From assembly GCA_027005635.1 (NCBI GenBank), contig JALTLI010000139.1, positions 1 to 43,701 on the forward strand: a stretch of 43,701 nt of DNA. The letters run 5' to 3'. The translations under genes were made by a program, and so were the position numbers. The notes below the pieces were generated by a model. It searched no databases and was not told the origin of the DNA. It saw only the letters and a program-made list of their open reading frames with translations. Of the stretch, positions 23,608 through 35,413 are shown piece by piece (the first letter of the stretch is position 1; every line of letters starts with the position of its first letter). Origin of the DNA: Alphaproteobacteria bacterium (GTDB lineage: Bacteria > Pseudomonadota > Alphaproteobacteria > UBA2136 > JALTLI01).

Positions 23608-23614
23608 TATACTA

Positions 23615-23653
23615 TTTTTAAAACAAACTTATAAAGAGAGATAAATAAAATGC
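23615..23653 (+). repeat. 39-nt perfect direct repeat, copy 2
   Basis: Identical to 23165-23203. Confidence 0.95.
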
Positions 23654-23832
23654 TTACTGAACAAAATCAAAACCGAATTGAACTCACTGATGAAATCACT
23701 AAAATCCTAATTGATAATGCTGTTAAACAGATTAATGAAAAATATAGTAATAACTACCATCAGCAGAACCCCCACCTTTTAAGCACATTCATAGAACTGC
23801 AAAAAACTATTTATTTATCTACACTTTCTTAA
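23650..23832 (+). CDS. Hypothetical early protein (60 aa)
   Basis: ORF track. It has the same leader as the previous gene. Confidence 0.55.
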   Translation: MLTEQNQNRIELTDEITKILIDNAVKQINEKYSNNYHQQNPHLLSTFIELQKTIYLSTLS

Positions 23833-23854
23833 CCTACATGTTTATAGGTTTTTT
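23831..23854 (+). terminator. Weak intrinsic terminator
   Basis: AACCTA-catgttta-TAGGTT followed by TTTT. Confidence 0.35.
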
Positions 23855-23878
23855 ATAAAAATAAAAAGAGTGTGATAA

Positions 23879-26239
23879 ATGAAGAAAGTAATAATTTCAT
23901 TAGGTCAATCTGTTTATAGAAACAGAATTAAGCAGCAGGAAATATCTGTAAAGGATTTATTTAGGAAATTATCTTTACCTGATATTAGGACTGAAAAAGA
24001 TGGTGCTTATTTTATATTTGCATCATTCACGAAAAATATTAGAAATGCTGTTAATGTAGATAAATATTATGGGGCTACTATTGATCTGGATAATACCCCA
24101 CTCGCTATATCTGAAGTACAGGAACTATTTAAAAAATATTTATACTGCATCCACACTACCCACAGCCACAAAGCCCCCGGAAAAGGTGTTAGATACCGGC
24201 TAGTATTGCCCTATCGTACCCCGCAAAGCCCTGAACGCCATGTAAACACATTATTACATATCATTAATATGTTAGGTATGGATAATGTAGATCTGTCCAG
24301 TAAGGCTTTATCCCGGCCTATGTATCTTCCGGCCTGTCCTAAAAAACGTGAAAAATATTTTAAATTTGTAGCTAATGAAAAAGGGCGGCCATTTAATCCT
24401 GACAGAATAAAACTTGATCCATCATTACAGTGGGAACTTGAGCAAAATAATTTACCGGGGCAGGTTGAACCTTTAGATATAAATAAGGAAATTTCCGAAG
24501 GGGAAAGAAATGAATCAATAGCCCGGCTTGTCGGTAAATTTATCCATAATGGAATGGATTTAGGTTTAATAGAACAATCTGCTATTGTGTGGAATGCTAC
24601 TAACTGTGTGCCCCCATTATCTGATAAAGATGTAAAAACCATTGTAAAATCGGTTTATAAAGCCCATAAAAGAAACAGCAAAGATACAGGGTGGGGATAT
24701 GATGAATTAGTAAGGCGGGTTAAAGAGAGCAAAGAACCTAAGCGGGATTATGACTTACTTATTAATCTTATATCTGGTTCACATGAAAAATTAAAGCAAT
24801 CACAGATTGAATTATTAATCCGGTTATTAAGACAAAAAACGGAAATCCCATTAAACTTAATCCGAAGTGAACTTTCAGCAGCAATAGCAGAAAAGAAAGG
24901 CATTAAGGAAGAAGAAGAAGAACTAAACACACAGAAATCTATTAAAGATCTTAAAAAGGAATTTACTGATTGGGTATATTTACGCAAAGACGATAAAATG
25001 TACAACTCAGTAAATGGGCTTGTATATAAAGTGGAAGGTTTTAATAGAATGCATAGCTCAATGATTGAAAAAGGGGCAATGCATTCTTTATTATTAAAAT
25101 TTAAGTCAGTTAAACAGGCTGATATGCTTCAGTTCAACCCATCAGAAGAACGGGTATTTAAAACAGATCACATTATATATGCTAATACCTATGTCCCACC
25201 TGAATTATTTCCAATGCCGGGAAATGTACGGCCAATGCTAAAACATTTTAAATATCTGATACCGGATGAAAGAGAAAGAAATATTATTTTAGATTTTATG
25301 GCTTTTATCATCCAGAAGCCCGGTGAAAAAATTAGATGGATGCCTGTTATAAAAGGAAGTAAAGGTATTGGTAAATCTATTATTGCTGAATTGATTTTAG
25401 CCCCATTAATCGGCATGAGTAATTTTAAACCTGTAGATTCAAAAGCAGTAAGACGGGATTTTAATAGCTGGCAGTTAGATGCACAGATAGTATGTTTTCA
25501 TGAATTAAAAATAGGTGAGACACGAAAAGAGAAAAAAGCCCTTACTGATTCACTGAAATCATTTATTGCCGATCCTACTATTCAGGCACACAGAAAAGGG
25601 CTTGATGAATATACCGTATTAAATAAGTCCAATGTTCTAGGCTTTACCAATCACGAAGATGCAATAATGATAACCCCTGATGAAAGGCGTTTCTGTATGA
25701 TTCGTTCTGAAGTTATGCCCAAATCAATTAATTATTATAACCGGCTAACAGACTGGTTAAAATCTCATAAAGAAGAAATGCTTTATTATTTCACTGAACG
25801 GGATATAAGCTGCTTCAATTATTCTACAGCACCCGAAACCGAATACACTAAAGAGATTAAAGATAGTAGCCAAATGTGGCCTACATCTATTCTTGTGGAT
25901 GCCTTGGGGGATGATCAGCACCCATTTAATACTGTAGGAGCTATGACTTGGGAAGGCATTGTAAACTTTATCCGATCTGAATCAGTAGGTAAGGATATGA
26001 TGGTAGCGGATAACCTGATTAAAGCCACATCATCACAAGGATATTTATTAATCAATGCTTTGCGGGAAATGGGCTTTAGGAAATTCAACGTAGGGAACAC
26101 TGATAGGGTGAGAATTAATAATAAACTCCATAGGGTATGGGTAGCTCCAAGGTCTGTTAGAGAGTTCAGTAAGTTATCATCTAATACAGTTGCTAAACTG
26201 CTGAAGCATGAAAAACAAATTTATGATTTTGATGAATAA
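23879..26239 (+). CDS. DNA primase / SF3 (D5/P4-alpha-like) replicative helicase
   Basis: 786 aa. N-terminal primase-like region ('IHTTHSHKAPGKGVRYRLVLPY'), a PriCT-like helix ('GERNESIARLVGKFIHNG...PPLSDKDVKTIVKSV'), Walker A 'GSKGIGKS' and Walker B-like 'IVCFHEL'. Confidence 0.8.
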   Translation: MKKVIISLGQSVYRNRIKQQEISVKDLFRKLSLPDIRTEKDGAYFIFASFTKNIRNAVNVDKYYGATIDLDNTPLAISEVQELFKKYLYCIHTTHSHKAPGKGVRYRLVLPYRTPQSPERHVNTLLHIINMLGMDNVDLSSKALSRPMYLPACPKKREKYFKFVANEKGRPFNPDRIKLDPSLQWELEQNNLPGQVEPLDINKEISEGERNESIARLVGKFIHNGMDLGLIEQSAIVWNATNCVPPLSDKDVKTIVKSVYKAHKRNSKDTGWGYDELVRRVKESKEPKRDYDLLINLISGSHEKLKQSQIELLIRLLRQKTEIPLNLIRSELSAAIAEKKGIKEEEEELNTQKSIKDLKKEFTDWVYLRKDDKMYNSVNGLVYKVEGFNRMHSSMIEKGAMHSLLLKFKSVKQADMLQFNPSEERVFKTDHIIYANTYVPPELFPMPGNVRPMLKHFKYLIPDERERNIILDFMAFIIQKPGEKIRWMPVIKGSKGIGKSIIAELILAPLIGMSNFKPVDSKAVRRDFNSWQLDAQIVCFHELKIGETRKEKKALTDSLKSFIADPTIQAHRKGLDEYTVLNKSNVLGFTNHEDAIMITPDERRFCMIRSEVMPKSINYYNRLTDWLKSHKEEMLYYFTERDISCFNYSTAPETEYTKEIKDSSQMWPTSILVDALGDDQHPFNTVGAMTWEGIVNFIRSESVGKDMMVADNLIKATSSQGYLLINALREMGFRKFNVGNTDRVRINNKLHRVWVAPRSVREFSKLSSNTVAKLLKHEKQIYDFDE

Positions 26240-26244
26240 ATAAA

Positions 26245-26382
26245 ATGATTGATTGTAAATATTTAAAAAATCGGCTGTGTACACATCAAAAAGTAAGACA
26301 TTTTAAAAGTGAACACTTTAAAAGGTGTCTACCTAATATATACCCCCATGTTAAATGTTTATATAAAGAGAAAAAGAAATGA
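26245..26382 (+). CDS. Unannotated 45-aa Cys/His-rich (zinc-finger-like) ORF, ATGA-coupled to the HsdM-like gene
   Basis: MIDCKYLKNRLCTHQKVRHFKSEHFKRCLPNIYPHVKCLYKEKKK. Its TGA (26380-82) overlaps the ATG at 26379. Confidence 0.4.
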   Translation: MIDCKYLKNRLCTHQKVRHFKSEHFKRCLPNIYPHVKCLYKEKKK

Positions 26383-27083
26383 TTAACCATAAAAAAGAAT
26401 TTATAAAACTGTTTAACAGTACAGCCCATAATCTTAACAGGTTTGAAGTGTTTTCTGATTTTGTAAAAATGTCAGCTATTGCCATATATAACGCCATTGC
26501 AAAAAATGAAGAACTGGAAAAAGAATATTTAGAAATTGTAGGGAAATATAAAAAGGAAGATGTGGATAATATAGTTAAATTATTTAGTCATGTGGTGATG
26601 GGGCTAGAAGCTGAATTTTGTGATTTTTTAGGTGATGTATTCATGGAATCTGAATTAGGTTCTAATAGAATGGGGCAATTTTTTACCCCCTATCATTTAT
26701 CTAAAATATGCTCGGATCTTACTTATTCTGATGATATAAAAAAATCAAAAGACAAAGAGTTCATAACTGTCCATGAGCCTGCCTGTGGTGCTGGTGGAAT
26801 GGTTATTGCTTTTGCTAATACAATGCTTGACAATGATATAAACTATCAGCAGAAACTATTTGTGAGCTGTATAGATAAGGATTATGTGGCGGCTTATATG
26901 TGCTTCATTCAATTATCACTTTTAAATATCCCGGCTGAAGTGATTATAGGAAATGCCCTGAACATGGATATTCAAAAAGTATTCAGAACCCCAGCTTATT
27001 ATTTAGGTAACTGGGAATATAAATTAAATGCCCCACAGAAACAAAAGATAAAAACAAAGATTATTTTAGAATATAACCCTTGA
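26379..27083 (+). CDS. HsdM/N6-adenine-methyltransferase-like SAM-binding protein lacking the catalytic (N/D/S)PP(Y/F/W) motif
   Basis: Motif X 'GQFFTPYHL', motif I 'EPACGAGGM', 'CIDKD' and 'IIGNAL' are present. The protein ends ~35 aa later and has no PP dipeptide anywhere. Confidence 0.6.
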   Translation: MINHKKEFIKLFNSTAHNLNRFEVFSDFVKMSAIAIYNAIAKNEELEKEYLEIVGKYKKEDVDNIVKLFSHVVMGLEAEFCDFLGDVFMESELGSNRMGQFFTPYHLSKICSDLTYSDDIKKSKDKEFITVHEPACGAGGMVIAFANTMLDNDINYQQKLFVSCIDKDYVAAYMCFIQLSLLNIPAEVIIGNALNMDIQKVFRTPAYYLGNWEYKLNAPQKQKIKTKIILEYNP

Positions 27084-27108
27084 CATATCTTAGCCCCTAA
27101 TATATTAT
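27080..27108 (+). promoter_or_regulatory. Cassette promoter P1 (TTGACA-N17-TATTAT), spacer core CTTAGCCCCTAAT
   Basis: The stop codon of the upstream ORF (27081-83) lies inside the -35. No ORF occurs before P2. Confidence 0.6.
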
Positions 27109-27130
27109 ACATACATGGGCTGCGGGGTTA

Positions 27131-27153
27131 TCCGATAATCCACCCCTGCATGA
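27131..27153. repeat. GC-rich 23-mer TCCGATAATCCACCCCTGCATGA, inverted partner at 29591-29613
   Basis: The reverse complement of 29591-29613 is tcggataatccgcccctgcatga, matching at 21/23 positions. Confidence 0.85.
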
Positions 27154-27198
27154 CTATAAACCATATAAAATTAATTTTAATTATTTTAATAAAATCCC

Positions 27199-27227
27199 TT
27201 GACTTATGTTAGCCCCTAATATATACT
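27199..27227 (+). promoter_or_regulatory. Cassette promoter P2 (TTGACT-N17-TATACT)
   Basis: ttgacttatgttagcccctaatatatact. The ATG of the next ORF is 39 nt downstream. Confidence 0.75.
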
Positions 27228-27272
27228 TGTATCCAAGTTAAACATAAATACATAGGAACAAGGCTATGAAAA
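27199..27272 (+). repeat. 74-nt perfect direct repeat (promoter + leader + ATGAAAA), copy 1
   Basis: Identical to 29912-29985. Confidence 0.95.
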
Positions 27273-27475
27273 CAGAAACAGTAAAAGCAAGTAATATAAA
27301 CCACGGTGACACAATTATCATTAACGGTAAAGAGTTTACTGTAAACGGTGAATATATAAAAAACGGTTTTTTCGGTACTACCATTCATGGCCATAATATC
27401 AAGGGCAGTGTAGAACGTGTTTTATTCCCCAAATGGTATAAAGGAAAAATTGTAAAATATGTTCCCCAAATTTAA
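27266..27475 (+). CDS. Hypothetical cassette protein (69 aa)
   Basis: ORF track. Has its own promoter, P2. Confidence 0.6.
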   Translation: MKTETVKASNINHGDTIIINGKEFTVNGEYIKNGFFGTTIHGHNIKGSVERVLFPKWYKGKIVKYVPQI

Positions 27476-27494
27476 AATAAATTAAGATTAGGGG

Positions 27495-27523
27495 TTGACA
27501 TAAGTTAGCCCCTAACATATACT
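27495..27523 (+). promoter_or_regulatory. Cassette promoter P3 (TTGACA-N17-TATACT), core GTTAGCCCCTAAC
   Basis: Preceded by TTAGGGG (27488-94), which is complementary to CCCCTAA (27509-15) in the spacer. Confidence 0.75.
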
Positions 27524-27558
27524 TATCACACCTTAAACAAACACAGAGAGAAAAGGTA

Positions 27559-27936
27559 ATGATTAATTTAACATATTTCATTTCAAAGCAACAAACAAAA
27601 GTGATTAAATCACTGATTAAAGGTGAAGAAGGCAAGTTTTTTGCTGATAAACTGATTCAATTACAGCACATTATTGAAACCATGCCAAAATCCTATGAAC
27701 AGGATGGTAAAGGGGATGAAGCTGTAGCATATCTCCACTACTTCAAAGGTGGGTATGATTTTTATATTACTGAAAGGGATATTGAAAAAGAACAACATCA
27801 GGCTTTTGGTTTAGTTTCAGGCCATGAAATAGAAATGGGCTATATTTCAATAGTAGAATTATTGGCTAATAATGTAGAAATAGATCTGCATTTTGAACCT
27901 ACTACCTTAAAGGAAATAAGAAAAAATTTAAAATAA
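27559..27936 (+). CDS. DUF2958-like protein (family common on conjugative plasmids/ICEs)
   Basis: 'YEQDGKGDEAVAYLHYFKGGYDFYITERD...AFGLVSGHEIEMGYISIVELL...VEIDLHFEPTTLKEI' matches my recollection of the DUF2958 signature. Confidence 0.5.
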   Translation: MINLTYFISKQQTKVIKSLIKGEEGKFFADKLIQLQHIIETMPKSYEQDGKGDEAVAYLHYFKGGYDFYITERDIEKEQHQAFGLVSGHEIEMGYISIVELLANNVEIDLHFEPTTLKEIRKNLK

Positions 27937-27950
27937 ATTAAAATTAGGGG

Positions 27951-27979
27951 TTGACTTATGTTAGCCCCTAATATATACT
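27951..27979 (+). promoter_or_regulatory. Cassette promoter P4 (TTGACT-N17-TATACT)
   Basis: The same upstream tttaaaataaattaaRattagggg as P3. TTAGGGG at 27944-50 is complementary to 27965-71. Confidence 0.75.
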
Positions 27980-28017
27980 TATCTCAAGTTAAATAAATAC
28001 AGAGAGAGATTAAAGCC

Positions 28018-28239
28018 ATGACTAAACAAATCAAAGTAATTATGAAAGACACACTGAACAATGACAAAGAAATTACTCGTGACATTGATATTAGTAATTT
28101 CTATATAAATGGTGGTTCTTCATGGGTGGTTTCTTCTGATGTTGAACGTCAAAGAAAGATGCTTTTAGATTGGATTGAAGAGCGTGCTAATGAACAACAT
28201 AATACACTTTTAGAATTAAAAGCATGGTATATTTTTTAA
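28018..28239 (+). CDS. Hypothetical cassette protein (73 aa)
   Basis: ORF track. Has its own promoter, P4. Confidence 0.6.
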   Translation: MTKQIKVIMKDTLNNDKEITRDIDISNFYINGGSSWVVSSDVERQRKMLLDWIEERANEQHNTLLELKAWYIF

Positions 28240-28257
28240 AATCAATTTTAAAAAGCC

Positions 28258-28286
28258 CTTGACATAAGTTAGGGGCTAACATATAC
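28258..28286 (+). promoter_or_regulatory. Cassette promoter P5 (TTGACA-N17-TATACT) with the 13-mer core inverted (GTTAGGGGCTAAC)
   Basis: Colinear with P3 for ~60 nt except for the flipped core. Upstream AGCCC (28253-57) is complementary to GGGCT (28272-76). Confidence 0.75.
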
Positions 28287-28323
28287 TGATCACACCTTAA
28301 ACAAAAAGAGAGAGAAAAATATC

Positions 28324-29181
28324 ATGACTTATTTCCGTGAAATGACACATGCCCACAATGTTGAATTAACTAATGAAGCAATGCTTCAAAACGCCCCTTC
28401 TGTATTCGCTGAACAACCATTTAATGAAGTATCTAGCAAGTATGGCTTTGTTCCTACTATTAACGTGATTGAAGGCTTACGGGCTGAAGGCTGGCTTCCT
28501 GTGGATGCTACTCAAAAGAATGTAAGGAATAAGGATAAAACGGATTTTACTAAACATCTGATCCGCTTCAGACGTTTAAATGATGATATTAAAGTAGGTG
28601 ATTCTGCTGTAGAACTGCTGCTAACAAACAGCCATGATAGAAGTTCAGCCTTTGTTCTTCATGCTGGTATCTTCCGTATGGCCTGTGCTAATGGCATTGT
28701 AATCGCTGATAGCACATTTAATAAGGTATCTGTACGCCATAATCAAAACGCCCTTGAAGATGTTATAGAAGGCTCTTATCAGGTACTTGAAGAAGTTCCC
28801 TTAATTACCAATGAAGTAGAAGCTATGCAAGAGGTGATCTTAAACCGGGAAGAACAGAAAATTTTTGCCGGGGCTGCTTTGGATTACATGCTACCTGAAC
28901 CCAAAGAAGGGGAAGCTAAAATAGTTACTTCCAAGGATGCATTAATAGGCCAAATCCTACACCCTAAGCGTTCTGCTGATACTGGCAGTGATTTATGGTC
29001 TACCTATAATGTAGTGCAAGAAAAAGCCTTACGGGGTGGCCTGATCAGTCATAAAATGGATGCTAAAGGCCGATATAGAAGAAACACCACACGGGCTGTA
29101 AAGAGCATTGATAAAAACGTAAAGCTGAACAAGGCTTTATGGGAAATGGCTGTGAAAATGAAGGAATTAAAAGCAGCTTAA
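28324..29181 (+). CDS. DUF932-like protein (phage/plasmid/ICE family of unknown function)
   Basis: 'ELLLTNSHDRSSAFVLHAGIFRMACANGIV' matches the DUF932 core (NSHDGS...G.FR..C.NG). Confidence 0.65.
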   Translation: MTYFREMTHAHNVELTNEAMLQNAPSVFAEQPFNEVSSKYGFVPTINVIEGLRAEGWLPVDATQKNVRNKDKTDFTKHLIRFRRLNDDIKVGDSAVELLLTNSHDRSSAFVLHAGIFRMACANGIVIADSTFNKVSVRHNQNALEDVIEGSYQVLEEVPLITNEVEAMQEVILNREEQKIFAGAALDYMLPEPKEGEAKIVTSKDALIGQILHPKRSADTGSDLWSTYNVVQEKALRGGLISHKMDAKGRYRRNTTRAVKSIDKNVKLNKALWEMAVKMKELKAA

Positions 29182-29189
29182 TTTTAACG

Positions 29190-29210
29190 GGGCAAGGATG
29201 CCCTTAATTT
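29190..29210 (+). terminator. Short hairpin terminator candidate
   Basis: GGGCA-agga-TGCCC followed by ttaattt. Confidence 0.35.
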
Positions 29211-29223
29211 AGGAATATAAAAA

Positions 29224-29508
29224 ATGAATATTTTTGGTAAAATAAATAATGAGAAAGCAAGAAAACAACTTAATTTACCACATGACTATGAAATATTTAT
29301 AATGGCTACGGAAATTGATTATTTAAAAGATGATTTTAGCTATAAAGTACATGATTTGTATAGTGAAATAGGATATTTATCTAGTGATGATGTAAATTCA
29401 ATATTTAAAGAAATAAACATAAGCATAAAACTACCACAAAACTATATATTAGTTGGCATGATTAATAAAAATAATAATTCTGAAGTTTATGGGATAATAG
29501 AAGTATGA
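29224..29508 (+). CDS. Hypothetical protein (94 aa, very AT-rich)
   Basis: ORF track. Confidence 0.55.
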   Translation: MNIFGKINNEKARKQLNLPHDYEIFIMATEIDYLKDDFSYKVHDLYSEIGYLSSDDVNSIFKEINISIKLPQNYILVGMINKNNNSEVYGIIEV

Positions 29509-29588
29509 GTATTGAACAACTTACCCCTGAAGAACTGGTTTTATTAATATTGGCATTTATTGTAGGGGCAATAATCGCTAGAATTTAA
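29505..29588 (+). CDS. Unannotated 27-aa hydrophobic peptide (ATGA-coupled)
   Basis: MSIEQLTPEELVLLILAFIVGAIIARI. Its ATG overlaps the TGA of the upstream ORF. Confidence 0.3.
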   Translation: MSIEQLTPEELVLLILAFIVGAIIARI

Positions 29589-29590
29589 TA

Positions 29591-29613
29591 TCATGCAGGG
29601 GCGGATTATCCGA
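29591..29613. repeat. Inverted partner of the 27131-27153 GC-rich 23-mer
   Basis: tcatgcaggggcggattatccga. Confidence 0.85.
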
Positions 29614-29629
29614 CTATCCCGGCTGATGT

Positions 29630-29658
29630 AAGTATTATATGTTAGCCCCTAATATAAT
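29630..29658 (+). promoter_or_regulatory. Degenerate cassette promoter P6 (core GTTAGCCCCTAA plus TATAAT, no TTGAC -35)
   Basis: aagtattatatgttagcccctaatataat. The ATG of 29691 is 33 nt downstream. Confidence 0.4.
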
Positions 29659-29690
29659 GCAAGTAATATTTTGAATAAAAGGTAAATAAA

Positions 29691-29915
29691 ATGACTGAAA
29701 TTATAAACAACACCCGCCACCCTTTAACATTTCATCATGAAAATAAAGAAGGTGAAATAGAAATAACTATCCTTCCTTTTGATTCTGGTGAAATACCAGA
29801 TAATCTATGGAAGAAATTCAAGAAAAATAAAACAGTAAAAGAAAAATTGGAAAATAAAAGTTTAGTAGTAAGAGAAAAACAAAATTTTTTTAAAAAATTG
29901 TTTAAATTTAGTTGA
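29691..29915 (+). CDS. Early paralog (74 aa) of the capsid-adjacent gene 14673..14987
   Basis: See the alignment given for 14673..14987. Its stop codon lies inside the -35 of P7. Confidence 0.6.
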   Translation: MTEIINNTRHPLTFHHENKEGEIEITILPFDSGEIPDNLWKKFKKNKTVKEKLENKSLVVREKQNFFKKLFKFS

Positions 29916-29940
29916 CTTATGTTAGCCCCTAATATATACT
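29912..29940 (+). promoter_or_regulatory. Cassette promoter P7 (TTGACT-N17-TATACT)
   Basis: Identical to P2. Confidence 0.75.
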
Positions 29941-29985
29941 TGTATCCAAGTTAAACATAAATACATAGGAACAAGGCTATGAAAA
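29912..29985 (+). repeat. 74-nt perfect direct repeat, copy 2
   Basis: Identical to 27199-27272. Confidence 0.95.
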
Positions 29986-30134
29986 ATATTGAAATAACAG
30001 CAGCACAAAAACAGCTTTTAGATAGCATATTTGAAGTTAATGCTAAAAGGATTGATCAGCTTATAGTCAGATCTTTTAGATCTACCGGAAAAGAGCCACA
30101 TGTTTACGGAACTGAATACCAATATAAGGGGTAA
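29979..30134 (+). CDS. Unannotated 51-aa ORF driven by P7
   Basis: MKNIEITAAQKQLLDSIFEVNAKRIDQLIVRSFRSTGKEPHVYGTEYQYKG. It has the same leader, RBS and start as 27266. Below the track cut-off. Confidence 0.55.
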   Translation: MKNIEITAAQKQLLDSIFEVNAKRIDQLIVRSFRSTGKEPHVYGTEYQYKG

Positions 30135-30138
30135 TGAA

Positions 30139-30360
30139 ATGTACAGCAAAAACAGAAAAATGAAAAAAGTTGAAGTGGATGATCTTGTAGTAGTAAATGA
30201 TCTTCCTGATACCACTGTTTATATGGTTTGTTCAGTAGAGAATGGGCAGGCTGAATTAGAATATGAATCAGGCTATAAAAAAATTAATGCAGGTAAAATG
30301 CCAGTAGAATTATTATTAAAACCCACGAAAGAACAGCTTAAAAATAGTGGGCTAAATTAA
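30139..30360 (+). CDS. Hypothetical protein (73 aa; start moved from 30100)
   Basis: The internal ATG at 30139 follows AAGGGG and the stop of the 51-aa ORF. The track start would overlap that ORF by 35 nt. Confidence 0.55.
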   Translation: MYSKNRKMKKVEVDDLVVVNDLPDTTVYMVCSVENGQAELEYESGYKKINAGKMPVELLLKPTKEQLKNSGLN

Positions 30361-30396
30361 CTGGGAATGATCCCATAATATAAAAGGTGATAAATT

Positions 30397-30591
30397 ATGT
30401 TTAAAATTCAGTGTAGTAAAAAATCAACAGGTGGTAAGGCTTTTGTATCCAATCATCCTACCGGATCTGAATCAGTTCAGTTTACAGATAATGAAAGTCA
30501 AGCCTACATATTTAGTGATATGGCACAATGTAAAAATATCCGTGATGATATTCTTCAATATGCTGATAATGTAACAATTCTGAAAATCTAG
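30397..30591 (+). CDS. Hypothetical protein (64 aa)
   Basis: ORF track. RBS aaaaggtga. Confidence 0.5.
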   Translation: MFKIQCSKKSTGGKAFVSNHPTGSESVQFTDNESQAYIFSDMAQCKNIRDDILQYADNVTILKI

Positions 30592-30635
30592 GAAGGCTGG
30601 TAGGCATGGATGCCATTTTATGAAGGTAACAATTA

Positions 30636-30806
30636 ATGAAAACCAATAAAAAAACTAATGCTGATTATGTTCGTGATCATGTGGCACGAAGAAAGGAAGC
30701 CGGATTAATTCAGGCTAAAGTATGGGTACATCCTGAAGAAGCTGATGCTGTACGCAAGTACGCAGCCCGTAAACCAAAAACAAAAGAAATCATGAAAAGG
30801 TTATAA
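30636..30806 (+). CDS. Unannotated 56-aa basic protein, possible RHH/Arc-like DNA binder
   Basis: MKTNKKTNADYVRDHVARRKEAGLIQAKVWVHPEEADAVRKYAARKPKTKEIMKRL. It fills the gap and stops 1 nt before the next ATG. Confidence 0.4.
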   Translation: MKTNKKTNADYVRDHVARRKEAGLIQAKVWVHPEEADAVRKYAARKPKTKEIMKRL

Positions 30807-30807
30807 A

Positions 30808-31527
30808 ATGAATACAGAAAAAGTAGATTGGATTAAATTATCAAATGATCCAGAAATAAGAAAATTAGCAAAGGAATTATGTGAAAAGCATGGATTCAAT
30901 GCTGATAGTTTAGTTTTTGGCTCCACACCCTATCCTGATTCAGATCAAAAAGTAAAAGATGTGGATCAATATTACTACAGGTGGCGTGAATATGTAGTGG
31001 ATGCTGTGACCATTTCACAAAAAAATAGAAATAAATGTGAACATGGACTACCTATAGATGATCACTGTGCATTATGTGAAAGGGGTTTTGATATGGCTAT
31101 GGATGGGGAATGTAAACATGGAACACCAGAAAATGTATTTTGTAACCAGTGTGAATCCGAATATCAGGAACACAAAACAGAATCAGATCCATCAGGCAAA
31201 GCACAGCATGAACCCGGTGCTAAATTAGATGCTGGAAAGATAAGGCCGGGCTTAGTGCTTGGGGGCTTTGCAAGGGCATTATGGGCAGTCTGTGAGGTAG
31301 GTACTAAAGGTGCTGCCAAATATTCAGATAACGGCTGGATGGAAGTGGAAACAGGAAAAGAAAGATATACTGATGCAGGTTTACGCCACTTTCTAAAGTC
31401 TGCTATGGGTGAAGATATAGATCCAGATTTTGACCTGTTACACATGGCACATGAAGCATGGAACAGCCTAGCAAAGCTGGAATTGAAATTAAGAGAAATT
31501 GAAGCTAAGAATGCTGATCAGCAATAG
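30808..31527 (+). CDS. Fusion protein: N-domain + two CxHG-x8/9-CxxCE zinc knuckles + DUF5664-like (dNTP-pyrophosphohydrolase-associated) C-domain
   Basis: 'KCEHGLPIDDHCALCERG' and 'ECKHGTPENVFCNQCESE' are tandem. The C-terminal 'DAGKIRPGLV...GAAKYSDNGW...AGLRHFLKSAMGEDIDPDFDLLHMAHEAWN' fits the DUF5664 pattern as I recall it. Confidence 0.5.
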   Translation: MNTEKVDWIKLSNDPEIRKLAKELCEKHGFNADSLVFGSTPYPDSDQKVKDVDQYYYRWREYVVDAVTISQKNRNKCEHGLPIDDHCALCERGFDMAMDGECKHGTPENVFCNQCESEYQEHKTESDPSGKAQHEPGAKLDAGKIRPGLVLGGFARALWAVCEVGTKGAAKYSDNGWMEVETGKERYTDAGLRHFLKSAMGEDIDPDFDLLHMAHEAWNSLAKLELKLREIEAKNADQQ

Positions 31528-31678
31528 CTTTAAACCATGCTGACACAGTAAGGCCACAGGCTTTAGCAGCTTGTTTATAACGCTTTTTCTGGTCTACTGT
31601 AACCCTGAAGCCGGGAATCAGTTCAGACGCTTTAAGGCTTGCGGGCAATGGGGGTCTACCCCGTTTATTTTTACTCAT
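31505..31678 (-). CDS. Unannotated 57-aa ribbon-helix-helix (CopG/Arc/MobC-like) regulator on the opposite strand, apparently leaderless
   Basis: MSKNKRGRPPLPASLKASELIPGFRVTVDQKKRYKQAAKACGLTVSAWFKAIADQHS (basic arm, beta strand FRVTV, two helices). The local GC is clearly higher than in the flanks. A perfect TATAAT ends 8 nt before the ATG. Confidence 0.6.
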   Translation of the reverse strand: MSKNKRGRPPLPASLKASELIPGFRVTVDQKKRYKQAAKACGLTVSAWFKAIADQHS

Positions 31679-31686
31679 GGGAAATT

Positions 31687-31715
31687 ATTATAGTATATAC
31701 ATAAAAGGCTTGCAA
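31687..31715 (-). promoter_or_regulatory. Leftward promoter TTGCAA-N17-TATAAT for the RHH gene
   Basis: Minus strand reads catgaTTGCAAgccttttatgtatatacTATAATaatttcccATG. It shares the self-complementary -35 hexamer (31710-15) with the rightward promoter. Confidence 0.6.
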
Positions 31716-31737
31716 TCATGATATTTTTGTATATACT
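31710..31737 (+). promoter_or_regulatory. Rightward class-II promoter TTGCAA-N16-TATACT
   Basis: Near-identical to 22962-22989. Flanked by two AATCATGATA boxes. Confidence 0.6.
31714..31723. promoter_or_regulatory. Operator-like box AATCATGATA (palindrome ATCATGAT), copy 1
   Basis: Abuts the shared -35. Confidence 0.45.
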
Positions 31738-31740
31738 TTT

Positions 31741-31750
31741 AATCATGATA
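31741..31750. promoter_or_regulatory. Operator-like box AATCATGATA, copy 2
   Basis: Starts 4 nt after the -10 and covers the expected transcription start. It is 27 nt from copy 1. Confidence 0.45.
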
Positions 31751-31768
31751 AACGTATAGAGATAAAAA

Positions 31769-32020
31769 ATGGATGGTGAAAAACTATATTGGAATGCTGA
31801 AAAGGGTGAATATCAAACTGAATTTCCCAATAAAACAGATAGAATAGTTTATTTAATGGGTGATGAAGGATTGACCTTGCATGAAGCATTAGCTGTTAAA
31901 AAAGCATTAGAAGAAACTATAGATACTAAAGTAGATGCAGGGGTGAAAAGAGGGATACGCCCACTTAGGAAAGCCCTACTAAAATTGGAAGAAGGTATTT
32001 ATTTTTCCCAGAGGTATTAA
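31769..32020 (+). CDS. Hypothetical protein (83 aa)
   Basis: ORF track. First gene downstream of the rightward switch promoter. Confidence 0.55.
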   Translation: MDGEKLYWNAEKGEYQTEFPNKTDRIVYLMGDEGLTLHEALAVKKALEETIDTKVDAGVKRGIRPLRKALLKLEEGIYFSQRY

Positions 32021-32022
32021 AA

Positions 32023-32202
32023 ATGCTGGTAATTGAAACAAGAAAAACATCAAATGCTGAACATACTGTAAACTGGTTTTTGTTTGGTTATAAACCAATC
32101 CGAATAAACAAATCTATCCCAAAAGGATATTTAAAAGTTTTTGATGAATCACATTTACACAATGGCGCAATTCAAAGAAGGGATAATAAAAATGATAATT
32201 GA
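32023..32202 (+). CDS. Unannotated 59-aa ORF
   Basis: MLVIETRKTSNAEHTVNWFLFGYKPIRINKSIPKGYLKVFDESHLHNGAIQRRDNKNDN. It starts 2 nt after the previous stop and fills the gap. Confidence 0.4.
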   Translation: MLVIETRKTSNAEHTVNWFLFGYKPIRINKSIPKGYLKVFDESHLHNGAIQRRDNKNDN

Positions 32203-32275
32203 AGTATTAAAAACCATTGCATCAATTTTATGTATATTGGCATTATTTGTAATTTTCGGATATGTACCATCATAA
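32192..32275 (+). CDS. Unannotated 27-aa hydrophobic peptide
   Basis: MIIEVLKTIASILCILALFVIFGYVPS. Overlaps the previous ORF by 11 nt. Confidence 0.3.
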   Translation: MIIEVLKTIASILCILALFVIFGYVPS

Positions 32276-32299
32276 TTAAGATGGATAGAGGTTTAATAT

Positions 32300-32527
32300 A
32301 TGAAAAATTGTAGAAACTGTGAATATGCTGAATGGACTGTAATAAATGGAAGAAGAAAATTTAATAACTGGGCTGAATGTAAAGCACCAATTAATATAGA
32401 TTTACTTCCTGCTTCAGCATGGGAAGCAATAAGACTTTTGAAAAATAAAAAATTAACAGTAGCGAGTTATAAAAATGAAAATATAGAATGTTCACAATTT
32501 TTAAAAAAGGAGAAAAAAAACACTTGA
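32300..32527 (+). CDS. Small Cys-containing protein (75 aa; CxxC...C...C)
   Basis: ORF track. 'CRNCEYAEW...AECKAP...ECSQF'. Confidence 0.5.
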   Translation: MKNCRNCEYAEWTVINGRRKFNNWAECKAPINIDLLPASAWEAIRLLKNKKLTVASYKNENIECSQFLKKEKKNT

Positions 32528-32551
32528 ATAAAATTAATTAAAGTATATACT
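32524..32551 (+). promoter_or_regulatory. Class-II-type promoter TTGAAT-N16-TATACT with GTATATAC
   Basis: cacTTGAATaaaattaattaaagtaTATACTttaat. The upstream stop codon lies inside the -35. Confidence 0.5.
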
Positions 32552-32600
32552 TTAATTCTGTAAACAAATTATTTTTTAACAACCAAAAAGGTAAAAACAA

Positions 32601-33122: not shown

Positions 33123-33138
33123 ATCCCTGTGGTTGGGT

Positions 33139-33230: not shown

Positions 33231-33260
33231 AAAAAGCAAACAAAGAGAGAGAAATATATA

Positions 33261-34565
33261 ATGGCTAAACATCATTCTCTAGGTGGATCAAATACCTACA
33301 CATGGCTTAACTGCCCCGGCTCCCGAAAATCCATTGAAGCGGCAATAGAAGCCGGACTAATACCAGAAGAAAGCCCCGGAAATAAATACACAGAAGAAGG
33401 CACTGTAGCCCATGCTTTAGGTGAAATATGTTTAGATATGGGGCTTGATCCAAATGATTTTTATAATAAAACAATCCCTTCAGTTATCGGTAAAAAACGC
33501 ACAGCAAAATATTTAAACAAATCTGAATTAGAACACATAGATTTAACTAAAGAATTAATGACTTCTGAATATATAGAAGCCGTGGAAATCTATGTTAATT
33601 ATATCCGTGAACAGCATTCAATAATGGAAGGTTCTACACTTCTTTTAGAAGAAAGCTATTCTTTAGAAAATTATGTAAATGATGATTGTGGTGGTAGTGC
33701 TGATGCTTCTATTTTAGGTGTGAAGGGATTATTAGAAGTGGCTGATTATAAACATGGAAAAGGGGTAGTAGTAGAAGCCCCCGGAAATCCACAAACTAGG
33801 CTCTATGGTTTAGGGGCAATATTAAAACACAATGATGAATATAATTTTAAAGAAGTAAAATTAACAATAATTCAACCCCGTGTTTTTCATACTGATGGTG
33901 CTATCAGAAGTGAATCCCTATCTGTAAAAGAACTATTGAAATGGGGTAGAACTGTAGTAAAGCCAGCCGTTAAATTATTAAATTCTGATAACCCTGAATT
34001 AATTCCCGGTGAAAAACAGTGTATGTGGTGTAGGGTGAACGGGATCTGTAAAGCCAATGCTGAACAAGCCTTGATGGTAGCACAAAAAGAATTTTCTGAT
34101 ATTGCCCTCCCCGATGATGTATTAGCTGAACCCCAAACACTTACAATAGAAGAAGCAAATTTAATTGTCTCAAATAAAAAAAGAATTGAAAAATGGCTTA
34201 ATGCAGTTCAGGCTTATGTGGAAACTGCTGTAGAATCGGGTTCAGTTGAATTACCGGATTTTAAATTAGTTGAACGTATTTCAAACAGGCAATATAAAAA
34301 TGAAAAATCTATTGTCAGAAGATTAAAGCGGCTGCATCCCGAATTAAATCCTTATGATGAACCAAAAATAAAAAGCCCGGCACAAATGGAATCTTATTTA
34401 AAAGCTGAATATGGATATAAACCAAAAGAAGCTAAAGCCCTTGTAGATAAATTTTGTGAACGTGTAAAAATTGGTATTGCACTTGCCCCTATTACTGATG
34501 GAAGAAAAGCTATTGAGCCACCCATCAAAACAGAATTTGCTGAATTTGTTGATAATGACAAATAA
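33261..34565 (+). CDS. PD-(D/E)XK Cas4/RecB-like exonuclease (DUF2800-like)
   Basis: 'LGGSNTYTWLNCPGS', 'EGTVAH', 'ADYKHGKGVVVEA', 'NPQTRLYGLGA' and the Cys cluster 'CMWCRVNGIC'. Confidence 0.7.
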   Translation: MAKHHSLGGSNTYTWLNCPGSRKSIEAAIEAGLIPEESPGNKYTEEGTVAHALGEICLDMGLDPNDFYNKTIPSVIGKKRTAKYLNKSELEHIDLTKELMTSEYIEAVEIYVNYIREQHSIMEGSTLLLEESYSLENYVNDDCGGSADASILGVKGLLEVADYKHGKGVVVEAPGNPQTRLYGLGAILKHNDEYNFKEVKLTIIQPRVFHTDGAIRSESLSVKELLKWGRTVVKPAVKLLNSDNPELIPGEKQCMWCRVNGICKANAEQALMVAQKEFSDIALPDDVLAEPQTLTIEEANLIVSNKKRIEKWLNAVQAYVETAVESGSVELPDFKLVERISNRQYKNEKSIVRRLKRLHPELNPYDEPKIKSPAQMESYLKAEYGYKPKEAKALVDKFCERVKIGIALAPITDGRKAIEPPIKTEFAEFVDNDK

Positions 34566-34573
34566 AGTAAATA

Positions 34574-34605
34574 ATCAGAAGATCAGAAGATCAGAAGATC
34601 AGAAA
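34574..34605. repeat. Tandem 8-mer (ATCAGAAG x3 + ATCAGAAA) creating three GATC sites at 8-nt spacing
   Basis: Read directly, in the exonuclease-SSB intergenic region. Confidence 0.95.
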
Positions 34606-34642
34606 AACCCGTAAATAGAAAACAAGTTAAAAGGTAAAAATT

Positions 34643-35413
34643 ATGACTACTAAAAAAGATCCCACCCGTGTAGTAACAGGTGTATGCCGTTCGTCATTCA
34701 TGTTTGTGAATCAATTAGAAGCTGATGATAATGGTAATAAAAAATGCCGGACTCAAATCATTATTAAGAAAAGTGATAAGGCTACTATTGCCAAACTGGA
34801 TAAAGCTATTAATGCTGCTAGTATGAAAAAGTTCGGTAAAAAAGCGGCTAAAAATTCCCGTTCTTTTGGCTACCCATTGCGTGATGCTGATAAAGAAATA
34901 AAAGATGGTACTTTTGAACCAGCAGATCCAAAGGTTTATAAAAACTGTTATTTCATGAACACTACAGCCTATAAGCTGCCCGGCCTTGTTGATCAGGATA
35001 ATGAACTAATTGAAGATCCTGATGAACGTGCTGAAATGGCTGTATCAGGTTTCTATTTCCGGTTCTCTGTTACTATGAAGGGTTATGATAAAGATGGTAA
35101 TAAGGGTGTCCGGGCTGAACTGAATAATATGATGTTTATCAAAGAAGGTGAACGCCTTGATGGTGGTGTAGCTGCTGATTCTGAAGATTGGGGTGATAGT
35201 GGCGATCAAGATCCTGATGATGAAAACGATTCAGATAATGATTATTCCCCTGAAAAAATTAAAGAACTCTGTGCCGAATTGAAAGAAGAAGATGCTGAAG
35301 CCCTTGATGAAATTCTGGAAGAATTTGATTGCAAGAATGCACGGGCGGCATCAAAACTTGATGATGATGAACGCGCTGAAATTGGTGAAGCATTGGAAGA
35401 TGCTTTAGATTAA
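34643..35413 (+). CDS. Single-stranded DNA-binding protein (DUF2815 / T7 gp2.5-like) with an acidic C-terminal module
   Basis: 'RVVTGVCRSSFMFVNQ', 'GYPLRDADKE', 'SGFYFRFSVTMKGYD..GNKGVRAELNNMMF' followed by an Asp/Glu-rich tail. Synteny with the exonuclease and polymerase. Confidence 0.65.
   Translation: MTTKKDPTRVVTGVCRSSFMFVNQLEADDNGNKKCRTQIIIKKSDKATIAKLDKAINAASMKKFGKKAAKNSRSFGYPLRDADKEIKDGTFEPADPKVYKNCYFMNTTAYKLPGLVDQDNELIEDPDERAEMAVSGFYFRFSVTMKGYDKDGNKGVRAELNNMMFIKEGERLDGGVAADSEDWGDSGDQDPDDENDSDNDYSPEKIKELCAELKEEDAEALDEILEEFDCKNARAASKLDDDERAEIGEALEDALD

What the first reader, a model, noticed from the sequence alone, without database searches (positions are those of the whole stretch)
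27080..29940. Seven copies of a promoter cassette with a quasi-palindromic spacer; one copy has the 13-mer exactly inverted, with compensatory upstream change
Seen: TTGAC(A/T)-N17-TATACT occurs at 27080, 27199, 27495, 27951, 28258 and 29912, with a -35-less copy at 29630. The spacer always carries GTTAG-CCC-CTAA(C/T). Each copy is followed 33-45 nt later by a purine-rich RBS and an ATG. Twice the upstream stop codon lies within the -35. P5 (28258) is colinear with P3 (27495) for ~60 nt, but its core is GTTAGGGGCTAAC, the exact reverse complement, so the loop of the GTTAG/CTAAC stem is flipped. P3 and P4 are preceded by TTAGGGG, which can pair with CCCCTAA across the -35. P5 is instead preceded by AGCCC, which pairs with the flipped GGGCT, so the complementarity covaries. 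Known: these are near-consensus sigma70 elements. Loop inversion at quasi-palindromes is the signature of template-switch mutation. T4-type phages carry mobile promoter-stem-loop (PeSL) cassettes that shuffle small early genes, and mycobacteriophage repressors bind many dispersed asymmetric sites. Inference: this is a PeSL-like mobile regulatory cassette family in a small non-T4 myophage. Its spacer is probably an operator and/or part of a terminator hairpin.
Basis: partly seen in the sequence, partly recalled or inferred. Interest (0 to 1): 0.75.

Follow-up and report, generated by a model that had tools for sequence, protein, structure and literature searches.

The report
Repeated promoter-hairpin cassettes in a phage
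A small uncultured phage puts the same ~85-base unit, a strong promoter fused to an RNA hairpin, in front of each gene of a fast-changing accessory island, closely resembling the "PeSL" cassettes so far described only in large T4-like phages.

Summary
The repeats are real and far beyond chance: 5 exact TTGACW-N17-TATACT sites against 0.03 expected, and 7 cores against 0.09 expected. All lie in 27080-29940 of a circular ~43.6-kb phage genome.

The "quasi-palindromic spacer" is the 3' arm of a 10-14 bp sense-strand hairpin. Its 5' arm is the upstream (TTA)GGGG plus the -35 hexamer itself, because TTGAC pairs with GTTAG through two G·U wobbles. In the window P3, P4 and P5 form this hairpin (-16 to -20 kcal/mol, z about -4.5 to -5.5). 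P1, P2 and P7 have lost the 5' arm. P6 is a different unit.

P5's "inverted" triplet is a true compensatory change. Orthologous cassettes before DUF932 in two relatives read GGGG...CCCC, whereas P5 reads GCCC...GGGC.

The cassette, with an invariant TTAGCCCCTAA core, recurs in four related low-GC genomes and in a 44-46% GC lineage. It is absent from more distant relatives. Homology blocks between genomes break inside cassettes.

Verdict: a sequence-unrelated analogue of T4-type PeSLs in a non-T4 phage family. No U-tract follows the stem, so it is probably an attenuator, insulator or 3'-end protector rather than a classic terminator. An extra operator role is unresolved; a conserved 56-aa protein co-occurs with the core.

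The parts
27077..27160 (+). P1-type unit. It comprises promoter TTGACA (27080) - N17 - TATTAT (27103-27108) with core TTAGCCCCTAA (27090-27100), followed by a GC-rich element ending in GGATAATCCACCCCTGCATGA (~27117-27155). It has no 5' hairpin arm (CCC upstream) and no gene before P2.
   Evidence: Homologous units occur in L013 (13040-13110), L006:703, L015:3253 and L021:1935. Local fold energy is 0 kcal/mol.
27168..27265 (+). P2 cassette: -35 at 27199-27204, core at 27209-27219, -10 TATACT at 27222-27227, a 5'UTR, then ATG at 27266 (69-aa gene). The upstream arm is CCC, so there is no long hairpin.
   Evidence: D1: 88% identical to the P7 cassette over 105 nt. Fold energy is -3.4 kcal/mol.
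27468..27558 (+). P3 cassette: a 12-bp hairpin at 27488-27515 (5' arm TTAGGGGTTGAC, loop ATAA, 3' arm GTTAGCCCCTAA), -35 at 27495-27500, -10 at 27518-27523, ATG at 27559 (125-aa gene).
   Evidence: -17.8 kcal/mol, z -4.49, 0 of 200 shuffles fold as well; antisense energy -11.6 kcal/mol.
27924..28017 (+). P4 cassette: a 13-bp hairpin at 27943-27972, -35 at 27951-27956, -10 at 27974-27979, ATG at 28018 (73-aa gene).
   Evidence: -19.9 kcal/mol, z -5.51; antisense energy -10.7 kcal/mol.
28232..28323 (+). P5 cassette: a 10-bp hairpin at 28254-28277 with both G/C triplets swapped (AGCCCTTGAC ... GTTAGGGGCT), -35 at 28259-28264, -10 at 28282-28287, ATG at 28324 (DUF932 gene).
   Evidence: -16.5 kcal/mol, z -4.71. 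The orthologous cassettes L013:14709 and L008:5179 read GGGG...CCCC.
29584..29682 (-). Inverted copy of the P1-type unit. On the minus strand it reads TTGCAT - N17 - TATAAT - the GC-rich element (...GGATAATCCGCCCCTGCATGA). On the + strand the same core (29642-29652) abuts a perfect TATAAT (29653-29658) with no -35, upstream of the 74-aa gene at 29691.
   Evidence: (I2).
29881..29978 (+). P7 cassette: -35 at 29912-29917 (containing the stop codon of the 74-aa gene), core at 29922-29932, -10 at 29935-29940, ATG at 29979. Only the inner 6-bp stem remains.
   Evidence: Fold energy is -5.1 kcal/mol.
30636..30806 (+). Gene for a 56-aa protein in the P7 operon. Of the window ORFs, only this protein and the primase have homologues in the 44-46% GC lineage loci, and this one is far better conserved. 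It is a candidate cassette-associated factor of unproven fold.
   Evidence: No Pfam or PDB assignment was found.
31505..31678 (-). Gene for a 57-aa ribbon-helix-helix (NikA-like) protein on the opposite strand. It is present in the motif-bearing relatives L007 and L008 and not found in the motif-less relatives. It is a second candidate regulator.
   Evidence: (PF21983, E 7e-6, just below the curated cutoff).
33261..35413 (+). DUF2800/PD-(D/E)XK nuclease gene and Enc34-type ssDNA-binding protein gene. These could be the phage's own recombination functions acting on the ~85-105 nt repeats (inference).
   Evidence: Enc34_ssDNA-bd in the window protein. (PF10926, PF12705 and PF10991 on the homologues in relatives).

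Best explanation
Each unit is a composite expression and insulation cassette of the PeSL type. It consists of an A/T tract holding the upstream gene's stop codon, a near-consensus sigma70 promoter, a conserved 35-40 nt leader with a purine-rich RBS, and then the start codon of a small accessory gene.

An RNA hairpin is superimposed on the promoter. Its 5' arm is (G)TTAGGGG plus the -35 hexamer TTGAC. Its 3' arm is GTTAG plus CCCCTAA(C), which is the 'quasi-palindromic spacer'. A tetraloop lies between the arms. Transcripts starting at an upstream cassette or reading through from it fold this hairpin just as the polymerase reaches the next -10 box.

I infer that the hairpin attenuates or pauses read-through, or protects the 3' end of the upstream message. 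Each gene would then be an insulated unit expressed at a similar level.

Because the same ~85-105 nt sequence flanks every gene, homologous recombination between cassettes inserts, deletes and swaps genes. The phage's own nuclease and ssDNA-binding genes may take part. This would explain the hypervariable island.

Shown: the repeats, the hairpin and its strand bias, the compensatory change at P5, conservation across lineages, and breakpoints inside cassettes. Inferred: promoter activity, what the hairpin does to RNA, and recombination as the cause of the shuffling.
For: - Repeat statistics are far beyond chance.
- Hairpins of 10-14 bp fold at -13 to -23 kcal/mol with z from -2.4 to -5.5. For six of the eight strong copies folded, 0 of 200 shuffles did as well.
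- 23 of 39 copies across 8 loci have a sense-strand energy of -10 kcal/mol or lower, mean -17.5. The same DNA read antisense averages -10.2, because two stem positions are G·U.
- The proposed register pairs 73.9% of cells, against at most 49.7% when partners are slid. Five pairs change on both sides (2 of 500 shuffles reach that), and the covariation score is reached by 1 of 500 shuffles.
- P5 against its orthologues before DUF932 in L013 and L008: GGG->CCC upstream and CCC->GGG in the core, with the stem kept.
- 'Shifted' copies (L022:7038, L022:7819, L006:574) keep the same stem with a loop made from AC-G-T. The distance between the arms changes by 4 nt.
- In L008 and L013 the 5' arm is degraded to AAAAGGGGTTGAC, which keeps exactly the bases that pair.
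- The island is hypervariable between relatives whose primases are 68-80% identical.
- Nucleotide homology blocks begin and end inside cassettes: 27494-27977, 27930-29192, and 28237 onward.
- The anatomy matches the published PeSL description, including GGGG...CCCC stems and G-T pairs (PMC2839356).
Against: - No U-tract follows the stem. There are on average 2.95 T in the next 8 nt, against a 29% background, and the terminator scan did not call these sites. Strong intrinsic termination is therefore not predicted.
- About 16 of 39 copies keep a perfect core next to a -10 box but lack the 5' arm. These include P1, P2, P6, P7, the control-region copies in L007 and L013, and the class-B promoters.
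- In L008 and L013 the outer TAA(C) of the 3' arm is conserved although unpaired. The hairpin alone therefore does not explain the invariance of TTAGCCCCTAA.
- Covariation rests on few independent events, mainly P5 and one outer pair.
- Nothing here measures transcription, termination or recombination.
Confidence: 0.7

Rival explanations
1. The invariant TTAGCCCCTAA is primarily an operator. [quoted passage not shown] On this reading the hairpin potential is secondary. This could also be true in addition to the hairpin function.
For: - The core is invariant across lineages from 32 to 46% GC, while its 5' partner varies or is absent.
- It stays tied to the -10 box (a 2-nt gap) even in copies without a hairpin. 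It also occurs in the early control region of L007 (8779) and as a tandem pair in L013 (9304/9326).
- It is an 11-21 bp palindrome.
- The 56-aa protein is 58% and 37% identical in the high-GC lineage, where the primase is only ~25% identical. Apart from the primase it is the only window protein found in those loci.
- Both small proteins are absent from the motif-less relatives.
- The 56-aa gene lies in the operon of the last cassette, which would allow feedback.
Against: - A symmetric binder gives no reason for the centre triplet to be complementary to the upstream triplet in all 23 hairpin copies, nor for both triplets to flip together at P5.
- The 56-aa protein has no verified DNA-binding fold. 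Pfam gave nothing, the PDB sequence search gave nothing, the AF2 model has pLDDT 71 and Foldseek found no match.
- The window has no good core in its own early control region.
- The RHH gene's own promoter lacks the core.
Confidence: 0.2
2. The hairpin works as folded single-stranded DNA. It would be a recombination site recognised by a dedicated protein, making the island an integron-like array of gene cassettes that each carry their own promoter.
For: - The hairpin is strand-biased and its arms are invariant. Both are expected if any cassette must be compatible with any other.
- Breakpoints lie inside cassettes.
- The PeSL authors speculated that a GGGG...CCCC-binding recombination protein exists.
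Against: - No integrase or recombinase domain was found in any window protein scanned.
- Breakpoints fall at different points within the cassette rather than at one crossover site.
- Ordinary homologous recombination over 85-105 nt is sufficient.
Confidence: 0.06
3. The units are plain duplicated promoters. The hairpin would be an accidental by-product of the similarity between TTGAC and CTAAC and has no function.
For: P1, P2 and P7 lack the hairpin yet look like intact promoters in front of genes. Most stem pairs never vary.
Against: - The stem persists across lineages whose primases are ~25% identical and whose GC content differs by more than 10 points.
- It survives a 4-nt loop deletion and a triple G:C to C:G swap.
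Confidence: 0.04

Closest known systems
PeSL (promoter-early stem-loop) cassettes of T4-like phages RB49/phi1, PST/T4 and nt-1/KVP40 (Arbiol et al. 2010, PMC2839356; Comeau et al. 2014, PMC4122927)
   Same: - Sigma70-consensus promoter with an A/T-rich tract upstream that contains the upstream stop codon.
- A stem-loop with a G-run and a C-run, including G-T pairs, placed over the -35 and spacer.
- An SD and start codon at the 3' end.
- Many copies clustered before ORFans in a hyperplastic region.
- Gene-content differences between close relatives bounded by the cassettes.
   Different: - There is no sequence homology.
- The host genome is a ~44-kb non-T4 phage with about 7 copies, not ~50.
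- A single stereotyped stem is used, with the -35 hexamer always inside it, and the 3' arm is invariant across distant lineages.
- Terminator activity and mini-circles, demonstrated for PeSLs, are untested here, and no U-tract is present.
Morons of lambdoid phages (Hendrix et al. 2000, as discussed in PMC2839356)
   Same: Single accessory genes carrying their own promoter and a downstream or upstream stem-loop.
   Different: Morons have unrelated, individual regulatory sequences and are thought to move by illegitimate recombination. Here every gene shares one repeated cassette.
Operators placed inside promoters and dispersed over a phage genome: P22 Arc/Mnt operators, P1 C1 operators, Cluster A mycobacteriophage stoperators (from my own knowledge)
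   Same: A short conserved site repeated at many promoters. The position between -35 and -10 is like the Arc operator in Pant. Small RHH-type proteins are encoded nearby.
   Different: No binding protein is identified. The site is base-paired to an upstream arm with compensatory change, which operators do not need. All copies are confined to one 3-kb island in the window.
REP/BIME intergenic palindromes of enterobacteria (from my own knowledge)
   Same: Repeated intergenic hairpins without U-tracts that can protect upstream mRNA 3' ends and act as recombination substrates.
   Different: REPs are not fused to promoters and are chromosomal.

Membership tests
PeSL cassette (T4-type phages) | Sequence matching the sigma70 promoter consensus with an AT-rich region upstream of -35 | tested here: met
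   TTGAC(A/T)-N17-TATACT or TATAAT scores 10-11 of 12. A-tracts lie upstream. Promoter activity itself was not measured.
PeSL cassette (T4-type phages) | Stable stem-loop, often polyG...polyC, between or overlapping the -35/-10 boxes | tested here: met
   Stems of 10-14 bp, -13 to -23 kcal/mol, z down to -5.5, spanning the -35 and the spacer. Present at P3, P4 and P5 in the window, but not at P1, P2 or P7.
PeSL cassette (T4-type phages) | Clustered in hyperplastic regions, immediately upstream of ORFans | tested here: met
   All 7 copies lie in 27080-29940. Most downstream genes have no homologue in relatives whose primases are 68-80% identical.
PeSL cassette (T4-type phages) | Insertion, deletion and replacement events between close relatives bounded by the cassettes | tested here: met
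   blastn block ends at 27494 (P3 -35), 27977 (P4 -10), 27930 (P4 A-tract) and 28237 (P5 cassette start).
PeSL cassette (T4-type phages) | The stem-loop acts as a transcription terminator or attenuator | not testable with these tools
   The sequence argues against a classic intrinsic terminator, since no U-tract follows the stem. Term-seq or a reporter assay is needed.
PeSL cassette (T4-type phages) | Formation of cassette mini-circles by recombination between neighbouring copies | not testable with these tools
   This requires reads or PCR from infected cells.
PeSL cassette (T4-type phages) | Resident in a T4-like myovirus genome, or sequence-related to RB49/phi1 PeSLs | tested here: not met
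   This is a ~43.6-kb genome with non-T4 structural and replication genes. The cassette has no match in annotated phages beyond chance. It is therefore an analogue, not a member by descent.
Rho-independent (intrinsic) terminator | GC-rich stem immediately followed by a U-rich tract | tested here: not met
   The stem is present, but only 2.95 T on average occur in the 8 nt after it. The terminator scan did not report these sites.
Repressor operator within a promoter | Conserved (pseudo)palindromic site overlapping RNA polymerase contacts at several promoters | tested here: met
   TTAGCCCCTAA is invariant, lies in the spacer 2 nt from the -10, and has palindromic arms of up to 8 bp.
Repressor operator within a promoter | A cognate DNA-binding protein encoded by the element and co-varying in presence with the site | tested here: inconclusive
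   The 56-aa protein and the 57-aa RHH co-occur with the motif. The fold of the 56-aa protein is unassigned.
Integron attC-type recombination site | An associated site-specific recombinase | tested here: not met
   No integrase or recombinase domain was found in the proteins scanned. Not every ORF of the window was scanned.
Known RNA family (Rfam) | A match to a curated covariance model | tested here: not met
   There were no relevant hits in 21900-33300 at E<=1.

The most novel reading that the evidence does not exclude
The cassette may be triple-coded, with one ~45-nt sequence serving three functions at once. It would be a sigma70 promoter. It would be an RNA (or ssDNA) hairpin that insulates neighbouring genes. 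Its invariant 3' arm would be the recognition site of the conserved 56-aa protein, or of the RHH protein. That protein travels with the cassette between otherwise unrelated phage backbones, and would either switch the whole accessory or anti-defence island on and off or promote cassette exchange. This would be a self-contained, portable 'gene-cassette platform' for small phages.
Probability: 0.2. Interest if true: 0.8.

Novelty: new variant of a known kind. Interest (0 to 1): 0.58.

Why it matters
The PeSL authors stated that no evidence existed for this kind of cassette-mediated plasticity outside T4-like phages (PMC2839356). In the held literature the term still appears only for T4-like phages. 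Three points follow:
- **Convergence:** an unrelated family of ~44-kb uncultured phages, in two lineages with very different GC content, has arrived at the same design. This suggests promoter-hairpin 'linker' cassettes are a general way for phages to keep a swappable, individually expressed set of accessory genes.
- **Island contents:** here those genes include an orphan N6 methylase and a DUF932 protein, which (from my own knowledge) are of the kind often linked with anti-restriction functions.
- **A tractable model:** the stem is very stereotyped. The -35 lies inside it, two G·U pairs make it strand-specific, and there is one natural compensatory variant. That makes it easy to separate promoter, hairpin and possible operator functions by mutagenesis.

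Tried and rejected
- **Near-identical phage:** megablast of the region against annotated phages found nothing.
- **Cassette sequence against annotated phages:** the distant blastn search gave only chance-level hits inside coding sequence, and none to RB49 or phi1.
- **Motif scan of IMG/VR:** two single, unrelated hits.
- **Rfam:** only spurious miRNA-like hits, on two long inverted repeats elsewhere.
- **My first reading:** I initially read the upstream G-run as unimportant, and P5's upstream CCC as merely the P1/P2 type, so the covariation looked weak. I dropped this after folding the cassettes and comparing P5 with its orthologues.
- **Two adjacent inverted operators:** I considered a model with one operator over the -35 and one in the spacer. 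I rejected it as the main explanation for three reasons. The centre triplets are always complementary. The arm spacing changes from 17 to 13 bp in some copies while the stem is kept. L008 and L013 keep only the paired part of the 5' arm.
- **N4-type hairpin promoter:** I considered this because of the 5-bp stem and 3-nt loop of GTTAG-CCC-CTAAC. I dropped it because no virion RNA polymerase-sized gene exists and the promoters are sigma70 consensus.
- **103-aa HTH_17 protein as regulator:** rejected as the family-wide regulator because it has no homologue in any relative.
- **56-aa protein:** the precomputed PF10723 label on two homologues could not be reproduced. The PDB sequence search and Foldseek gave nothing.
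- **GC-rich element after P1-type promoters:** it has no conserved secondary structure and no significant fold energy.
- **Source names:** the cluster look-up returned none.

Full report
**What the window is.** Bases 1-127 equal 43575-43701 exactly, so the window is a circularly assembled genome of about 43.6 kb at ~34% GC.
- The minus-strand arm (346-22012) encodes terminase, portal, capsid, a DUF3383 protein, a tail-assembly chaperone, Baseplate_J and DUF2612.
- The plus-strand arm (22180-41158) encodes a primase/helicase, an accessory island, a DUF2800 nuclease, an Enc34-type ssDNA-binding protein, DNA polymerase A, thymidylate synthase and an SNF2 helicase.
- No annotated phage is close at the DNA level.
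- The primase defines a family of 43-48 kb metagenomic genomes.

**Check of the observation.**
- The pattern TTGACW-N17-TATACT occurs five times, at 27199, 27495, 27951, 28259 and 29912. Shuffles expect 0.03.
- The 13-mer GTTAGCCCCTAAY occurs seven times with at most one mismatch, against 0.09 expected. The copy at 28268 is on the opposite strand.
- No other good copy exists in the window.
- Extended colinearity is real: P3, P4 and P5 over 84 nt at 79-89%, and P2 and P7 over 105 nt at 88%.
- Corrections to the finding:
  - P1 has TATTAT, not TATACT.
  - P1 is followed by a GC-rich element and then P2, not by a gene.
  - P5 begins at 28259.
  - The '-35-less' copy is, on the minus strand, a second copy of the whole P1 unit. 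The two form an ~85-nt inverted repeat bracketing 27160-29584.

**What the spacer motif is.** Folding the cassettes as RNA shows that the upstream TTAGGGG and the -35 hexamer TTGAC together form the 5' arm of a hairpin. Its 3' arm is GTTAG+CCCCTAA, with a tetraloop between the arms. TTGAC pairs with GTTAG through two G·U wobbles.
- P3 folds at -17.8 kcal/mol (z -4.5), P4 at -19.9 (z -5.5) and P5 at -16.5 (z -4.7). None of 200 shuffles reaches these values.
- Across 39 copies in eight loci, 23 have a sense-strand energy of -10 kcal/mol or lower, with a mean of -17.5. The antisense strand of the same DNA averages -10.2. This is the asymmetry expected of a sense-strand RNA (or ssDNA) element.
- On an alignment of 23 canonical copies, the proposed register pairs 73.9% of cells, against at most 49.7% when partners are slid. 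Five pairs change on both sides (2 of 500 shuffles reach that). The five TTGAC/GTTAG pairs are invariant.

**The P5 'inversion'.** The cassette in front of the DUF932 gene is orthologous in the window, in L013 (14709) and in L008 (5179). All three share the gene, TTGACATAAG or the CACACCTTAAACA leader, and the position.
- The relatives read aaaaaaGGGGTTGAC...GTTAGCCCCTAAC.
- The window reads aaaaaGCCCTTGAC...GTTAGGGGCTAAC.
- Both triplets are therefore swapped and a 10-bp stem is kept. This is a real compensatory change.
- The flipped triplet is a stem segment of the long hairpin. It is a loop only of the small internal palindrome.
- Template switching, meaning loop inversion followed by quasi-palindrome correction, is a plausible route but cannot be tested here.
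- P1 and P2 carry the P5-type upstream CCC with a canonical CCCC core and cannot pair. A simple reading, which is inference, is that they arose by recombination between a P5-type cassette and a canonical one within the TTGAC-to-GTTAG segment.

**Comparative evidence.**
- *Low-GC relatives.* The invariant core TTAGCCCCTAA recurs at promoters in L007/L005/L003 and L013 (primase 80% identical) and in L008 (68%).
- *High-GC lineage.* It also recurs at 44-46% GC in L006 and in contigs of the MAG O_S4.1_bin.4 (L015, L021, L022). There the 5' arm is almost always a full GTTAGGGG and stems reach 14 bp.
- *Absent in distant relatives.* Relatives with primase 45-54% identical (L009-L012) have neither the core, nor consensus TTGAC-N17-TATAAT promoters, nor the accessory island in the fetched loci.
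- *Shifted copies.* In three copies the arms are 4 nt closer but the same stem is kept, with the loop made of AC-G-T.
- *Degraded 5' arm.* In L008 and L013 the 5' arm is reduced to AAAAGGGGTTGAC, which retains exactly the paired bases.
- These last two points favour a hairpin over a pair of protein-binding sites.

**The island and shuffling.** Of the window's cassette-driven genes, only three have homologues in these close relatives: the 125-aa gene (L013), and the 73-aa and DUF932 genes (L008). Nucleotide homology blocks start and stop within cassettes:
- 27494-27977 (P3 -35 to P4 -10) against L013;
- 27930-29192 (from the P4 A-tract) against L008;
- 28237 onward (from the start of the P5 cassette) against L013.

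P2 and P7 share 105 nt that end a few bases into two unrelated genes. The phage encodes a PD-(D/E)XK nuclease and an ssDNA-binding protein side by side. These could supply short-homology recombination, but that is inference.

**Comparison with PeSLs.** Arbiol et al. describe PeSLs as strong sigma70-like promoters with the following features (PMC2839356):
- an AT-rich upstream tract holding the upstream stop codon;
- an SD and start codon at the 3' end;
- a concentration before ORFans in hyperplastic regions;
- a role as linkers for modular shuffling.

Every sequence-level feature is met here. The elements are not homologous in sequence and the genome is not T4-like, so this is an analogue. Terminator activity and mini-circles could not be tested. 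The absence of a U-tract argues for attenuation, pausing or 3'-end protection rather than classic intrinsic termination.

**What the hairpin does not explain.**
- The 3' arm is invariant even where its partner is missing or degraded.
- It keeps a fixed 2-nt distance to the -10 box.
- It also occurs in the early control regions of L007 and L013.

One explanation is that frequent exchange forces all arms to stay mutually compatible. Another is a second, sequence-specific reader.

**Candidate readers.**
- The 56-aa protein (30636-30806) is 58% and 37% identical in the high-GC lineage, where the primase is ~25% identical. Apart from the primase it is the only window protein detected there.
- Both it and the 57-aa NikA-like RHH (31505-31678, minus strand) are missing from the motif-less relatives.
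- The 56-aa protein's fold could not be assigned.
- The RHH gene's own conserved bidirectional promoter lacks the core.
- The 103-aa HTH protein has no homologue in any relative.

**Verdict.** The spacer motif is the 3' arm of a promoter-embedded, sense-strand hairpin, with one natural compensatory variant. The cassettes mark exchange points in a hypervariable accessory island. This is a new variant of a known kind. An added operator or recognition role for the invariant arm remains open.

Noticed in passing
window 27077-27160 (+) and 29584-29682 (-); L013 13040-13110; L006 ~620-735; L015 ~3235-3330; L021 ~1860-1965: This is a distinct 'P1-type' unit. A promoter (TTGACA or TTGCAT, core, TATAAT) is followed ~45 nt later by a conserved block GGATAATCC(A/G)CCCCTGC(A/G)(T/C)G, with the next cassette ~115 nt downstream. 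The window holds two convergent copies bracketing a 2.4-kb block of genes. No conserved fold was found. Candidate roles are a small RNA, a leader or a decayed second core; the function is unexplained.
   Followed up: partly
L008 3411-3437 and 8350-8366; L007 13735-13760; L013 13135-13150; L006 ~610-625 (rc); degenerate at window 29606-29630: A second conserved box, CCGAC(G/A)AACGGTAGTA, lies directly upstream of weak-(-35) promoters that still carry the core. This marks a second promoter class and a possible activator site.
   Followed up: partly
window 30636-30806: The 56-aa protein (conserved LIQAKVWV...PEEADAVRKYAARKPKTK) is strikingly better conserved than the primase between the low-GC and high-GC lineages. 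It always lies in the operon of the last cassette. No family assignment could be made.
   Followed up: partly
window 31687-31737: A compact symmetric bidirectional promoter is conserved in three genomes. It reads AGTATATAC ... TTGCAA (a palindromic shared -35) ... GTATATACT. It drives the minus-strand RHH gene and the plus-strand replication genes and carries no core.
   Followed up: partly
window 22225-22301 / 22371-22447: A 77-nt inverted repeat (81% complementary) containing AAGGATAAT repeats lies in the divergent region between the structural and early arms. It may be an origin or a control region. It produced a spurious miRNA-like Rfam hit.
   Followed up: no
window 33157-33179 / 33215-33237: A 23-nt inverted repeat, 96% complementary with 35 nt between the arms, lies just upstream of the DUF2800 nuclease gene.
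   Followed up: no
window 29505-29588: A 27-aa ORF with a hydrophobic helix (MSIEQLTPEELVLLILAFIVGAIIARI) overlaps the stop of the preceding 94-aa gene through an ATGA overlap. The minus-strand P1-type unit points into its 3' end, an arrangement reminiscent of a small toxin with an antisense RNA. This was not tested.
   Followed up: no
window 26379-27083, 28324-29181: The island's contents include an orphan N6-adenine methylase-like protein (PF02384) and a DUF932 protein (PF06067). From my own knowledge these are typical of anti-restriction and plasmid leading-region gene sets.
   Followed up: partly
window 30808-31527 and 37771-38634: A protein with the dATP/dGTP diphosphohydrolase N-terminal domain (PF18909, E 3e-23) and a thymidylate synthase are encoded here. 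They hint at nucleotide-pool or DNA-modification functions.
   Followed up: no
window 3215-3743: Four ~73-nt direct repeats at ~150-nt spacing (64-85% identity to the reference copy) lie inside the 457-aa DUF2612 gene, indicating a repeated domain in a baseplate or fibre protein.
   Followed up: no
L009, L010, L011, L012: More distant relatives (37-39% GC) show essentially no TTGAC-N17-TATAAT promoters in ~14-22 kb each. They place their ORFans upstream of the primase instead. This suggests a different promoter type or a different host.
   Followed up: no
window 1-127 and 43575-43701: There is an exact 127-nt terminal duplication. It is an assembly overlap of a circular or circularly permuted genome.
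   Followed up: yes
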